In this document: positions 20,629-24,700 of the stretch, one piece after another | Position numbering within the stretch: the stretch's first letter is position 1 | Layout of the letters: every line of letters begins with the position of its first letter | From: Dictyostelium discoideum | Lineage: Eukaryota | NCBI GenBank assembly: GCA_000004695.1 | Contig: CM000150.2 | Coordinates: 2,144,001-2,208,000, forward strand | Direction: 5' to 3' | Length of the DNA: 64,000 nt | Program-made: the position numbers

Positions 20629-21126
20629 GTTTTCCCATTTAATAAATTAATTTTTTTAATTTTTATAAAAATCAAATGAAAAAAAAAAAAAAAAAAAAAA
20701 AATCATATTGTTCATTAATTTTCATTTTTTTTTCTTAAAAATTACTTAATTTAAAAAAAAAAAATGACAACCAATGGTTGTCGAAATTTTATTTTTTATA
20801 AATCCCACCATCTAGAATCGAACCTGCGGCATATTTCTCCATGTCGAAAAATTTAGCTTCTCTAGGTTTCGATCCTAGGACCTCGAGGTTATGGGCCTCG
20901 CACTCTACCCCTGAGTTAAGAAGCTGTAGATACAAGCTTGTTGAACCATGAGTTTCCACCATTTAAATATACACTGAGTACCAGAAAATTAAAAAAATTC
21001 AAAAACATCATCTCCCTACAACTCGAAAGATTTAGCAAACACTGGAACTCACCACTACACACAGTAGCACTACCATTAAACCTCAACAAATATATTACGT
21101 CACCAAACACACTCTACACCCCCCAA

Positions 21127-21184
<58 letters not shown>

Positions 21185-21671
21185 ATACAACCTTAAAAGG
21201 CAGTAAACGTGTGGCGCACTGGCGAGAAACTTCAAGTAACGGGAAGGAGGCTAGTGACTATGGGCCGTCGCGCTCACACAAATTAAGTCGACAAAAGGAA
21301 AAATATATATAAAGACCTATGGTGAGTTAGTGGCGCGAGAGATCACGAAAGTGGCTTAAGGTTTTACCGATAGTATTAGTGGAGGTTGGGTAGTTATAGC
21401 ACCATCAACTTCAAGACCCTCCATACTGTCGCTTAGGAAAAGAACTACCAGTACACGAACTAAAGAAAACTCAAGCAGCAGCCTGGGAAAAAAAACAACA
21501 TATACAAACTAATCAGACAAGAAAAAAAAGCAACCAAAAACGAATAAATAAAAAAATTCAAAAATCACCCTACAACTTGCTAGATTAAGCAAACACTAGA
21601 ACTCACCATTACAACAGTAACATCAAACCTCAATAAATATTACATCACTCAACACACTCTACACCCCCCAA

Positions 21672-21706
<35 letters not shown>

Positions 21707-24700
21707 ATACAACCTTAAAAGGCACCTATAAAATATTTAATAATAAAATGAGATATCTCAAGAAGAAGCAACTAAAATTGCGTTATCCATTCAAAAAAAG
21801 AAAATTAGGGAAGTTAAGATATTTTGATAGGATATAAAAATGTTTAATTATTAAACATCAAACAATTTACAAATTTCTTAATCAAATTCTTAATATCAAA
21901 AGTCAAAAACTCTGAATTTCAAAAAAATCAATAATAATCAAATTAAAAATTACAAATTTACAAACTCCAATTCACAATTTCTAAGATTACACATATCTGA
22001 TCTTAAGTAATCATTGTTGCAGAATGGTCTGCAAAACTTTGGAACTTTTATCTTTGATCAATATCATTCAGAGGGTGGCTTCTTATGTTGGCATCATATA
22101 GAATTGTTCTGGATAGTTCTTCAATGACCGTTACAAAGAGAGTAGGTGATATGGTTTCCCTGTTTTACTCCTCTTTTTATAGTAAAGGGGAGGGGCTTTC
22201 CATTGATTTCTATCCTGGGTGTGAGTTTCATAATTAGGTTTGTTAGGTTGGTGGGAACTTTGATACGTTGAACCGTTCTAAGTATTGATTTAGAAAGAGT
22301 TATTTATCTCAGGTTTTTTTAAATTAAATTATCTTAAATTCCATTATATTCTGGTACTTTTTTTTTTTGAATTGGAGGAATTATATTCTGGTACTGATTG
22401 TATATCCAAATGGTGGAAACTCATGGTTCAACAAGCTTGTATCGACAGCTTCTTAACTCAGGGGTAGAGTGCGAGGCCCATAACCTCGAGGTCCTAGGAT
22501 CGAAACCTAGAGAAGCTAAATTTTTCCACCATAATTAAAGAGGTCAAAGGTTCGACTCCCTATTTTTAATACTCTCATTTTCCGTTCAATTATTTGTTTC
22601 TATTTGCTTATGAGGGGCCACTCAGCACCTCCAAAAAAAAAAAATAAAAACAAAATAATTAAAAAAAAAAAAATTAAATTAAAACAAATAAAAAATTAAT
22701 TTCCTTACACCCAACTATAATTTTATTACACCAGAATAAAAACAATCTTCCAAAAATACTTTGATATTAAAAAAAAAAAAAAAAAAAATCAAAAAAATAT
22801 TTTCTTATTATACATTATTATGTAGTCTTAATTTGGATTTTTATTGAATTTTTTATCTGTCTATGGTTTTTTTTTTTAATTTTTTATCATTACTAAATTA
22901 GTAAATCTTTTAAAATAAATTAATTTTTTTTTTTTTTTATTTTTTTTTTTTTTTGTTTTTTTTTTATTTATTTTTGAATAATTTTTGCAATCAGCCACTT
23001 CTTTTTTTTTTTTTTTTTTTTTTTGCGATCATATATAAAAGAAAAAAACAAAAAATGAATAAAGTTGAAGAAATTGCAAAACAATTAATAATAAAAAGGG
23101 TTAATAAAAAAGGTGTAAGATTTTATGAAATAAGTGATCCAAATAAACCAAAAGAAGAGAAATTAATTTATCCATCAGTATCAACAGTATTATCGATTAT
23201 TGATCAACCAGGATTTAAATTGAGTGAAAGAGAAAGATTATTTAGTCACTTAAAGAAAACATTTGAAAATTCAATCAAAGCTGGTGTACCAATGTCAAAA
23301 AAGCAAGAATATTTTTTTAAAAGAGAAGCATTAAACAAATATGATGAAATTTCAAAAAACTCAATAAAGTATGGTAGTATCATTGGTACAGATTCTCATA
23401 ATGAAATTGAAGGAATGGTAGATCAAATTTTAGTTAAAACCGTATCAAAATCAAAACCATTAAAATCATTAATTGAAACTAAAAATGCTTTACTTTTAGA
23501 TGAAAATAATGAAATCCTTTCACAACCACTTCAACCACCAACACCAACACCAACATCAACAGAACCAGAATTAAAATCAGATACAGAATTAAAATCAGAT
23601 ACAGAAAAAACTAAAATTAAACCCAAAACAAAAACTGAATTAGAATTATCACTTGTTACTTCAACAATTTCAAAGGAACTATTAAATGATGCACCAGTAA
23701 AAGTGAAAAATGTATCAACATCATTTAAATATTGGGAGCAATTATCCGGTTTAAAATTAGAACATAATGATACTTTAGTTTTTAGTAATAAATATAAATT
23801 TGCAGGTGCATGCGATGCGGTTGCAAGAAAACCAAATGGTGAATTGGTTGTATTAGATTGGAAAACTTCATCAGCAATGTCAATAAATTATGCACTTCAA
23901 ATCTCTGCATATTCAAAAGCAATCGAAGAGATGACAGGTGAGAAAATTTCAGAAGCATGGGTAGTTATATTCAATAAAAATTTTCCAACCTTTAGTACCT
24001 ATTCAGTTAAAGATATCGATAGTTGTTTTCAAAATTTTTTATCAGCTTTAAACCTTTGGAATGCTTATAATGTTGATAAAATTGATGAAAGATATGAATC
24101 AACTGAAGTTCATTTTTTTAATCATTTACCATTTGCTTCAAAATTTACAACTAGTAATAATACTACTCCAATTAAAATTAATGGTAAAAAAGAAAGAATA
24201 AAAAATAAAAATAATAATAATAATAATAATAATGATGATAATAATGATAATAATGATAATAATGATAATAATGACGATAATAATGATAATAATGATAATA
24301 ATGATAATAATGATAATAATAATAATAGTATTTCATTTTCAAAAAGTGGTGGTATCATAATACCTGATACTGTTAAAAAAATAAAAATCAAATAAATAAA
24401 TTCATATTGATATATATAAATAAATATTAAAAAAATAAATAAATAAATAAATTATTTATAAATAATTAATTGTTTTTTTTTTTTTAGTTTATTATTTTTT
24501 TTTTTTTGTTTTTTGTAAATATTAATAAAATATTTACAAAAAAAAAAAAAAATAAAATAAAATAAAGATATTTATTTATTTATTAATTTATTTATTTATT
24601 AAATTTTTGGTATTTTTTCAGAATATTGAATCGGAGCAGAAAACATATAAAGGCATAATGCCATAAATGCTAAAGTTGATAAGAATACTATTATACAAAC

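What the first reader, a model, noticed from the sequence alone, without database searches (positions are those of the whole stretch)
20750..22620. Divergent pair of initiator tRNA-Met genes, each with a TRE5-type insertion at the canonical upstream site; 16-bp target-site duplication
Two identical 72-nt tRNA-Met(CAU) genes of initiator type lie in inverted orientation ~1.5 kb apart: complement(20854..20925) and 22447..22518. They share about 65 bp of upstream flank and about 60 bp of downstream flank including an exB-like AGGTTCGA(T/C)TC box. The locus therefore looks like an inverted segmental duplication. In both copies the homology ends 50-65 bp upstream of the tRNA, which is where DRE/TRE5-A elements integrate. 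What follows is retroelement-like sequence: tandem ~180-bp modules with internal oligo(A), and a decayed reverse-transcriptase fragment on the minus strand. At tRNA B a perfect 16-bp duplication ATTATATTCTGGTACT brackets a 20-bp stub tcctccaattc(a)10, which looks like an extremely 5'-truncated insertion with its TSD. Each tRNA gene appears to have been hit independently at the same relative position, a nice in-sequence example of Pol III-directed targeting.
Basis: partly seen in the sequence, partly recalled or inferred. Interest (0 to 1): 0.6.

Follow-up and report, generated by a model that had tools for sequence, protein, structure and literature searches.

The report
Retrotransposon remnants upstream of paired tRNA genes
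Two identical, back-to-back initiator tRNA-Met genes of Dictyostelium discoideum each carry a broken copy of the well-known tRNA-targeting TRE5 retrotransposon at the same spot upstream, which is a tidy but ordinary example of a known phenomenon.

Summary
The window is D. discoideum AX4 chr1:2,144,001-2,208,000. The two tRNAs are the annotated genes MetCAU-4 (20854-20925, -) and MetCAU-3 (22447-22518, +). They are identical, divergent and of initiator type.

- The pair is an inverted duplication.
- Each copy was hit separately by a TRE5 non-LTR retrotransposon in the canonical orientation.
- The 16-bp duplication, actually at 22343-22358 and 22380-22395, brackets a 21-bp stub. Its last 8 nt plus A10 are exactly the 3' terminus of the TRE5-A C-module.

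Four details need correcting:
- The "~180-bp modules with internal oligo(A)" are not A/B modules. They are two 5'-truncated 3' ends (ORF2 tail, internal A-run, C-module) of a TRE5-C-like family.
- These are best read as one copy nested in the other, at a perfect 20-bp duplication. A 234-bp GC-rich segment there remains unexplained.
- The 5' junctions lie 66 and 67 bp from the tRNAs, not the modal 47±3 bp.
- The minus-strand reverse-transcriptase fragment belongs to a different TRE clade.

About 61% of D. discoideum tRNA genes carry TREs, so this is already known biology. Interest is low.

The parts
20854..20925 (-). tRNA-Met(CAU), initiator type; annotated MetCAU-4 (AX4 chr1 2164854-2164925)
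   Evidence: ARAGORN; Rfam 57.7 bits; coordinates match S2 Table of PMC5391098 with an offset of 2,144,000
22447..22518 (+). tRNA-Met(CAU), initiator type, identical to the first; annotated MetCAU-3 (chr1 2166447-2166518)
20814..20824 (-). external B box (exB) GGTTCGATTCT, 30-40 nt downstream of tRNA A
   Evidence: read from sequence; exB boxes are reported about 41 bp downstream of 66% of D. discoideum tRNA genes (PMC3159450)
22549..22559 (+). external B box GGTTCGACTCC, 31-41 nt downstream of tRNA B
   Evidence: PMC3159450
20926..20991 (.). upstream flank of tRNA A (arm of the inverted duplication); its last 8-9 nt, (A)GAAAATTA at 20983/4-20991, are the proximal copy of the outer direct repeat
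   Evidence: 56/62 identical to the flank of tRNA B; repeat read
20992..21202 (+). outer 5'-truncated TRE5-C-like copy, first part. It holds the ORF2 tail (20992-21132, last 45 codons plus stop), the internal A52 run (21131-21182) and the first 20 nt of the C-module (21183-21202).
   Evidence: tblastn 84% aa identity to P0059 residues 1026-1068; 84.6% nt identity to L003 9098-9293; alignments; same 3' end as L012
21203..21436 (+). 234-bp GC-rich (46%) segment of unknown origin, forming the 5' part of the inner insertion
   Evidence: no hit in the TRE loci, Rfam, E. coli genomes or plasmids; no open frame
21437..21704 (+). inner TRE5-C-like ORF2 tail (about the last 80 codons, decayed) ending in an A30 run (21675-21704)
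   Evidence: 74.6% nt identity to L003 8989-9270; 81-83% to L012; 80% aa identity to P0051/P0059
21705..21799 (+). C-module (21705-21792) and terminal A7 (21793-21799). Nucleotides 21705-21724 repeat 21183-21202 exactly, which is the proposed 20-bp TSD of the inner insertion.
   Evidence: alignment to the C-modules of L003, L005, L006 and L007 and of L012; 100% block
21800..21807 (.). distal copy of the outer direct repeat GAAAATTA. Homology to the B arm resumes immediately after it, at 21808-21834.
   Evidence: GGGAAGTTAAGATATTTTGAT against GGAATTTAAGATAATTTAAT
22009..22291 (-). frameshifted internal reverse-transcriptase fragment of an older TRE of a different clade (P0042/P0044 type)
   Evidence: RVT_1 E=3.9e-6; phmmer E=2e-17; 60% aa identity to P0042/43/46; 67% nt identity to L004 ORF2
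22343..22358 (.). distal copy of the 16-bp TSD ATTATATTCTGGTACT
22359..22379 (-). 21-bp stub TCC-TCCAATTC-A10. It holds the last 8 nt of the TRE5-A-type C-module and its oligo(A). Its 5' end faces tRNA B.
   Evidence: TCCAATTCAAAAAAAA is the exact 3' terminus of the TRE5-A copies in L004, L005, L006 and L007, and occurs once in the window
22380..22395 (.). proximal copy of the 16-bp TSD; it ends 51 nt before tRNA B
22396..22446 (.). rest of the upstream flank of tRNA B (arm of the inverted duplication)

Best explanation
The locus is an inverted duplication of an initiator tRNA-Met gene. Each arm holds about 87 bp of upstream flank, the 72-bp gene, the terminator and an exB box. After the duplication, each copy was targeted separately by TRE5 non-LTR retrotransposons. 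These elements recognise the Pol III transcription complex on tRNA genes. [quoted passage not shown]

At tRNA A the insertion is 808 bp (20992-21799). A 5'-truncated TRE5-C-like copy (ORF2 tail, A52, C-module, A7) was later split 20 nt into its C-module. The splitting insertion is poly(A)-terminated and consists of a 234-bp sequence of unknown origin, a second ORF2 tail and A30. It duplicated 20 bp of the target.

At tRNA B reverse transcription stopped almost at once. It left only 8 nt of the TRE5-A-type C-module terminus, 3 extra nt and A10, between a perfect 16-bp target-site duplication.

Shown here: the sequence identities, the orientations, the repeats and the restored empty sites. Inferred: the order of events and the TPRT mechanism, which is taken from the TRE5-A literature.
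For: Genome and gene identity:
- ORF 16763-17866 (-) is exactly DDB_G0268816 of AX4.
- The tRNA coordinates equal those of MetCAU-4 and MetCAU-3 with an offset of 2,144,000.

TRE5 identity of the A-side insertion:
- ORF2 tails are 84% aa and 84.6% nt identical to L003, and 81-84% nt identical to L012.
- L003 lies 45 bp upstream of a tRNA-Glu gene in the same head-to-head orientation. It has its own 13-bp TSD.

Boundaries of the A-side insertion:
- Removing 20992-21807 from arm A and 22359-22395 from arm B gives two colinear sequences, with homology running about 21 nt beyond both junctions.
- The inner 20-bp repeat is 100% identical although the adjacent ORF2 tails are only 83% identical. It directly follows an A-run.

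The B-side stub:
- Its terminus is the exact terminus of four TRE5-A copies.
- The 16-mer repeat is unique to this site.
- TSD-flanked stubs holding only a C-module occur elsewhere, in L012 and L004.

Literature:
- Strict orientation, integration about 47 bp upstream, 5' truncations, TSDs and tandem insertions are described in PMC5391098 and PMC3159450.
- Marked TRE5-A integrates experimentally at both of these genes, with 1990 and 98 reads.
Against: - The element 5' ends are 66 and 67 bp from the tRNAs, about 20 bp beyond the modal 47±3 bp. No younger insertion lies in between to explain the shift.
- The outer repeat at tRNA A is only 8-9 bp and A/T-rich. Its proximal copy also aligns with element sequence. 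The true TSD could therefore be 0-9 bp.
- The inner insertion would lack a C-module of its own. The C-module is reported as essential for TRE5-A retrotransposition (PMC3159450).
- TREs are said usually not to integrate into each other (PMC5391098).
- The 234-bp segment has no identified source.
- The label 'TRE5-C' rests on published structural criteria (C-module present, no 3' B-module). It was not checked against a named reference sequence.
Confidence: 0.85

Rival explanations
1. The A-side composite is one retrotransposition event with two template switches, not a nested pair. Reverse transcriptase copied the 3' end of one TRE5-C-like RNA back to 21437. It then jumped to an unrelated cellular RNA, giving the 234-bp segment. 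It then jumped to position 20 of the C-module of a second TRE5 RNA and stopped at 20992.
For: - A single outer direct repeat flanks the whole 808 bp.
- The model needs no insertion of one TRE into another, and no insertion that lacks a C-module.
- Chimeric retrocopies made by template switching are established for L1-type elements (my own knowledge).
- Identity of 20 of 20 nt between two related C-modules is not very unlikely, at roughly 10%.
Against: - It needs two switches.
- It treats as coincidence that the repeated 20 nt starts exactly at the end of an A-run on one side and ends exactly where homology breaks on the other. That pattern is what a TSD predicts.
- The donor of the 234 bp was not identified.
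Confidence: 0.25
2. Two ordinary tandem TRE5 insertions at tRNA A (the younger one proximal, the older one distal) were followed by a deletion or rearrangement. That event removed most of the younger copy's C-module and its TSD.
For: - TRE-TRE tandems are the usual outcome of repeated targeting (PMC5391098).
- The two ORF2 tails are 17% diverged, as expected for separate events.
Against: - The proximal copy has no TSD of its own.
- The exact 20-bp repeat and the 234-bp foreign segment are not explained.
- The deletion end-points would have to recreate a perfect direct repeat by chance.
Confidence: 0.1
3. The 16-bp repeat at tRNA B is a local slippage or tandem duplication, and the 21-bp spacer is ordinary A/T-rich intergenic sequence. 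It would then not be a retroelement stub.
For: - The stub shares only 8 specific nucleotides with the C-module terminus.
- With one mismatch allowed, TCCAATTCAAAAAAAA is expected 0.38 times per 64 kb by chance.
Against: - The paralogous arm at tRNA A lacks exactly these 37 bp, so they are an insertion.
- The insertion has the TRE5 orientation and the exact TRE5-A terminus.
- Its 5' junction lies within 1 nt of that of the independent TRE5 insertion at the sister gene.
- Slippage does not produce a 21-bp unrelated spacer that ends in A10.
Confidence: 0.05

Closest known systems
TRE5-A (DRE) of Dictyostelium discoideum
   Same: - Inserts upstream of tRNA genes.
- The element 5' end faces the tRNA 5' end.
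- Has an oligo(A) tail, frequent 5' truncation and TSDs.
- Has a C-module at the 3' end.
- The stub at tRNA B carries the TRE5-A-type terminus TCCAATTC(A)n.
   Different: - No A-module or B-module sequence is present at this locus.
- The ORF2 tails at tRNA A are only about 75% nt identical to TRE5-A (L006/L007), against 82-85% to the C-like family.
- The distance to the tRNA is 66-67 bp, against 47±3 bp.
TRE5-C (as defined in PMC3159450: C-module at the 3' end, no 3' B-module); represented here by L003 and L012 (ORF2 P0059 and P0051)
   Same: - The ORF2 tail, the internal A-run and the C-module that starts CCATAC(A/C)ACCTTAAAAGGCACCT and ends CCATTC(A)n are shared with both copies at tRNA A.
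- The tRNA-upstream position and the orientation are the same.
   Different: - The window copies are short 5'-truncated remnants, about 15-25% diverged.
- One appears nested in the other.
- One carries a foreign 234-bp 5' segment.
- The family name was inferred from structure, not from a named reference.
L1-type 5'-truncated insertions and chimeric retrocopies (template switching, 5' transduction)
   Same: - Poly(A)-terminated, TSD-flanked and 5'-truncated.
- There is microhomology at the 5' junction: GAAAATTA against the element's GAA(T/C)A(A/T)T(A/C).
- An unrelated sequence is fused 5' of the LINE tail.
   Different: The target is chosen through the Pol III transcription complex, not through an endonuclease consensus alone. 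The donor of the fused segment is unknown.

Membership tests
TRE5 (tRNA-gene-targeted non-LTR retrotransposons, upstream type) | Sequence homology to TRE5 ORF2 or the 3' C-module | tested here: met
   84% aa and 84.6% nt identity to L003; C-module alignment. L003, L005, L006, L007 and L012 all lie head-to-head upstream of tRNA genes.
TRE5 (tRNA-gene-targeted non-LTR retrotransposons, upstream type) | [quoted passage not shown] | tested here: met
   The copies at tRNA A are on the + strand, to the right of a minus-strand tRNA. The stub at tRNA B is on the - strand, to the left of a plus-strand tRNA.
TRE5 (tRNA-gene-targeted non-LTR retrotransposons, upstream type) | Lies upstream of a tRNA gene within the range of genomic copies (37-211 bp, PMC5391098) | tested here: met
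   66 nt (20926-20991) and 67 nt (22380-22446) separate the element 5' end from the first nucleotide of the tRNA.
TRE5 (tRNA-gene-targeted non-LTR retrotransposons, upstream type) | Modal distance of 47±3 bp | tested here: not met
   66 and 67 bp here, against 45-48 bp in L003, L006 and L007.
TRE5 (tRNA-gene-targeted non-LTR retrotransposons, upstream type) | Oligo(A) 3' end and a target-site duplication | tested here: met
   Stub: A10 and a perfect 16-bp TSD. Composite: A7 and an 8-9-bp repeat of uncertain true length. Inner unit: A30 and a 20-bp repeat.
TRE5-A specifically | A-module, and B-module duplicated 5' and 3' (structure AB-ORF1/ORF2-BC) | tested here: not met
   The B-module duplication is seen in L006 (2268-2595 and 7265-7596) and in L007. 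No part of 20926-22446 matches the A- or B-modules of L006/L007.
TRE5-C (C-module present, no 3' B-module) | ORF2 followed directly by the A-run and the C-module | tested here: met
   Alignments. The name was not checked against a curated reference sequence.
Eukaryotic cytoplasmic initiator tRNA-Met | A1:U72, A54 and A60 in the T-loop (GGAUCGAAACC), and a CAU anticodon | tested here: met
   Read from the sequence and the Rfam alignment. The anticodon loop CCCAUAA and the T-arm motif are identical to human tRNAi-Met as I recall it (48/72 overall). The defining features are from my own knowledge.
Eukaryotic cytoplasmic initiator tRNA-Met | Three consecutive G:C pairs at the bottom of the anticodon stem | tested here: not met
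   The stem is CGAGG/CCUCG. Pairs 30:40 and 31:39 are G:C, but 29:41 is A:U.
SINE or other Pol III-driven non-autonomous retroelement (considered for the inner unit 21203-21704) | A tRNA-, 7SL- or 5S-derived head with A and B boxes | tested here: not met
   No tRNA is found by ARAGORN. There is no Rfam hit at E≤10. Only a loose A-box-like TGGCGCACTGG is present.

The most novel reading that the evidence does not exclude
Two readings are not excluded.

1. The inner unit 21203-21704 (234-bp GC-rich head, TRE5 ORF2 tail, A-run, 20-bp TSD) may be a copy of an undescribed non-autonomous element or chimeric retrocopy. It would have been mobilised by TRE5 proteins without a C-module and primed on the internal A-run.

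2. The shared offset of 66-67 bp, rather than 47 bp, may reflect a different geometry of the Pol III initiation complex on initiator tRNA genes. Their internal B box is degenerate because of A54 and A60.
Probability: 0.12. Interest if true: 0.45.

Novelty: already known. Interest (0 to 1): 0.15.

Why it matters
It matters little beyond curation. The tRNA genes are annotated. TRE5 targeting of tRNA genes has been characterised for more than 30 years. About 61% of D. discoideum tRNA genes carry a TRE (PMC5006619, Table S2).

The locus is still a clean teaching example. The paralogous arm serves as an internal "empty site" that fixes both insertion boundaries to the nucleotide.

Two small points might repay a genome-wide check. 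One is the shared 66-67-bp offset at both initiator genes. The other is the nested copy, which lacks a C-module of its own and carries a foreign 5' segment.

Tried and rejected
- **Word-index protein search with the RT fragment:** it found nothing. The exhaustive phmmer search was needed.
- **A/B-module hypothesis:** rejected. The real A- and B-modules in L006, L007 and L003 share nothing with the region.
- **Unoccupied allele:** the only other assembly reachable (GCA_054883475.1) has the same structure and differs only in A-run lengths.
- **Origin of the 234-bp segment (21203-21436):** nothing was found.
  - TRE, Skipper and DDT loci.
  - Rfam at E≤10.
  - RNA folding, z = -1.3.
  - Six-frame translation.
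  - E. coli genomes and plasmids.
  - Metagenome and prokaryote k-mer scans, which gave only chance 23-nt hits or none.
- **Is the RT fragment's clade (P0042/P0044/P0047) TRE3?** I tried to show this from genomic position. L004, L008 and L013 have no suitably placed tRNA, so the question stays open.
- **Flanks downstream of both tRNAs:** no TRE3-like sequence.
- **Named TRE RT sequences:** the RT alignment in the supplement of PMC5006619 is not held as text.
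Full report
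**Source of the window.** The window is 21.5% G+C. ORF 16763-17866 (-) is exactly the AX4 protein DDB_G0268816. The S2 Table of PMC5391098 lists MetCAU-4 at chr1 2164854-2164925 and MetCAU-3 at 2166447-2166518. These equal the window positions of the two tRNAs plus 2,144,000. The window is therefore D. discoideum AX4 chr1:2,144,001-2,208,000, and both tRNA genes are already annotated. In that study a marked TRE5-A integrated at both genes, with 1990 and 98 reads in the adapter library.

**The observation.**
- ARAGORN finds only these two tRNAs in 64 kb, both tRNA-Met(CAT). Rfam scores each at 57.7 bits.
- The genes are 72/72 identical and transcribed away from each other.
- Several features mark them as cytoplasmic initiator tRNAs: A1:U72, the T-loop GGAUCGAAACC (A54, A60) and the anticodon loop CCCAUAA. 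These criteria are from my own knowledge. Only two of the three canonical G:C pairs of the anticodon stem are present.
- The MetCAU primer of PMC5391098 does not fit these genes. This agrees with their 0-1 reads in the tRNA-primer libraries.
- The inverted repeat spans 147 nt at 95%. Upstream identity is 56/62.
- Downstream, only AATTTTTC and an exB box 30-41 nt after each gene are shared. The claim of about 60 bp of shared downstream flank is therefore overstated. exB boxes accompany 66% of D. discoideum tRNA genes (PMC3159450).
- The 16-mer ATTATATTCTGGTACT occurs exactly twice, at 22343-22358 and 22380-22395 (0.13 expected). It is not found in unrelated loci.

**Reference elements.** The frameshift-corrected RT fragment gave nothing in the word-index search. 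The exhaustive phmmer search gave E=2e-17. A second search seeded with the best hit returned the D. discoideum TRE ORF2 families. I fetched genomic copies.
- L006 and L007 have a roughly 330-bp segment duplicated between the 5' UTR and the region after ORF2. This is the B-module, so they are TRE5-A.
- L003 and L012 (ORF2 P0059 and P0051, 54-59% identical to TRE5-A ORF2) have A-modules, ORF1, ORF2, an internal A-run and a C-module, with no 3' B-module. This matches the published description of TRE5-C (PMC3159450).
- L005 (P0052) ends in poly(A) without a C-module, so it is TRE5-B-like.
- All five lie head-to-head with a tRNA gene, and the 5' ends of L003, L006 and L007 are 45-48 bp from it. L003 has a 13-bp TSD, GTTTCGGTTTCAA.

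**What lies at tRNA A.** No part of the region matches those modules.
- 20992-21132 encodes the last 45 residues of a TRE5 ORF2. It is 84% aa identical to P0059 and 84.6% nt identical to L003.
- It is followed by A52 and by the first 20 nt of the C-module.
- 21437-21704 is a second, longer and more decayed ORF2 tail with A30. It is 75% identical to L003 and 81-83% to L012.
- It is followed by a complete C-module (21705-21792) and A7.
- Both copies share the subfamily signature CACCCCCCAACTT-(A)n-CCATACAACCTTAAAAGGCA with L012.
- Both are on the + strand, so their 5' ends face the 5' end of tRNA A. This is the strict TRE5 orientation (PMC5391098).

**Boundaries from the paralogous arm.** The direct repeat (A)GAAAATTA lies at 20983/4-20991 and 21799/800-21807. 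Take out 20992-21807 from arm A and 22359-22395 from arm B. The arms then align colinearly for about 87 nt, and homology resumes right after both junctions: GGGAAGTTAAGATATTTTGAT against GGAATTTAAGATAATTTAAT. The sister arm thus acts as an empty site for each insertion. It shows that the two events are independent and occurred after the duplication. The proximal GAAAATTA also aligns with element sequence, so the outer TSD may be anywhere from 0 to 9 bp. This looks like microhomology at the 5' junction.

**Internal structure of the composite.** The 20 nt at 21183-21202 and 21705-21724 are identical, although the neighbouring ORF2 tails differ by 17%. The first copy follows A52. The second follows A30. 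Homology breaks exactly after each copy. The simplest reading is a nested insertion: the unit 21203-21704, poly(A)-terminated, inserted into the C-module of the outer copy and duplicated 20 bp. The T-run opposite A52 would give a natural primer for target-primed reverse transcription (inference).

Two points count against this reading. The inner unit would have no C-module of its own, and TREs rarely insert into each other. A double template switch and a tandem-plus-deletion history are kept as rivals.

The first 234 bp of the inner unit (21203-21436) are 46% G+C and closed in all frames. They match nothing I could search. They remain unexplained.

**What lies at tRNA B.** The 21 bp between the TSD copies read TCC-TCCAATTC-A10 on the minus strand. 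TCCAATTCAAAAAAAA is the exact 3' terminus of the TRE5-A C-module in L004, L005, L006 and L007. It occurs once in the window. The TRE5-C-like terminus is CCATTC(A)n, so the stub is of TRE5-A type. Its 5' end faces tRNA B. TSD-flanked stubs holding only a C-module also occur in L012 and L004.

**Distance to the tRNA genes.** The element 5' ends are 66 nt (A) and 67 nt (B) from the tRNAs, and no later insertion lies between. This falls within the 37-211 bp range of genomic TRE5-A copies. It lies outside the modal 47±3 bp (PMC5391098). The agreement of two independent events to within 1 nt argues for precise targeting to a shifted site at this gene type. I could not test why.

**The RT fragment.** 22009-22291 (-) is a frameshifted internal RT piece. 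It carries KRGVKQG..ISPTLF and FADH motifs and matches RVT_1 at E=3.9e-6. It is 60% aa identical to the P0042/43/46 clade. That clade is only 31-35% identical to the TRE5 ORF2s. The fragment is an older remnant in the spacer between the arms and is not part of the TRE5 insertions. Whether its clade is TRE3 could not be shown from position.

**Population data.** A second D. discoideum assembly (GCA_054883475.1) has the same structure. It differs only by 10 and 2 A residues in the two A-runs. No empty allele was available.

**Verdict.** The biology is already known: TRE5 targeting, truncation, TSDs and tandem insertions are well documented. About 61% of tRNA genes are occupied by a TRE, and 52 of 79 on chromosome 1. 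Interest is low. The residual curiosities are the 234-bp orphan segment, the nested copy without its own C-module, and the 66-67-bp offset.

Noticed in passing
window 21203-21436: A 234-bp segment with 46% G+C in a 21.5% G+C window. It has stops in all frames and no match in any collection or RNA family searched. It sits at the 5' end of the inner TRE5 copy, and its origin is unknown.
   Followed up: partly
window 20926-20991 and 22380-22446: Both independent TRE5 5' junctions are 66 and 67 nt from the initiator tRNA genes. The published modal value is 47±3 nt, and the reference loci L003, L006 and L007 show 45-48 nt. The upstream flank is also unusually G+C-rich for Dictyostelium intergenic DNA.
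   Followed up: partly
window 21131-21140 and 21675-21676: A-run length differs between the AX4 window (A52, A30) and assembly GCA_054883475.1 (A42, A28). The rest of 20600-22800 is identical.
   Followed up: yes
L012 9351-9505; L004 9960-10200: These loci hold TRE5-A stubs consisting of a C-module only. The L012 stub is flanked by GGTCATTGATTTTT and GTCATTAATTTTTT. L004 carries stubs in tandem on the minus strand upstream of a tRNA-Thr gene. They are precedents for the 21-bp stub.
   Followed up: partly
L012 6999-9087: The ORF2 tail of a TRE5-C-like element is interrupted by about 2.1 kb of A/T-rich repetitive sequence. The interruption falls at the position equivalent to window 21024 and 21577.
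   Followed up: no
L005 8438-8771: A 5'-truncated copy has a TRE5-A-like ORF2 tail (86% to L006/L007) that runs straight into an A-run and a C-module, with no B-module. The presence of a 3' B-module therefore varies among TRE5-A-like copies.
   Followed up: no
window 22600-22645: A G+C-rich patch, GCTTATGAGGGGCCACTCAGCACCTCC, is followed by A12. It lies 82-127 nt downstream of tRNA B, roughly where TRE3 elements insert. Its orientation is the opposite of TRE3, and it has no match to any fetched element.
   Followed up: partly
S1 and S2 Tables of PMC5391098, compared with window 22447-22518: The published 'MetCAU' primer does not match these two genes. The annotated MetCAU family therefore mixes elongator and initiator sequences. 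This explains their near-zero counts in the tRNA-primer libraries.
   Followed up: partly
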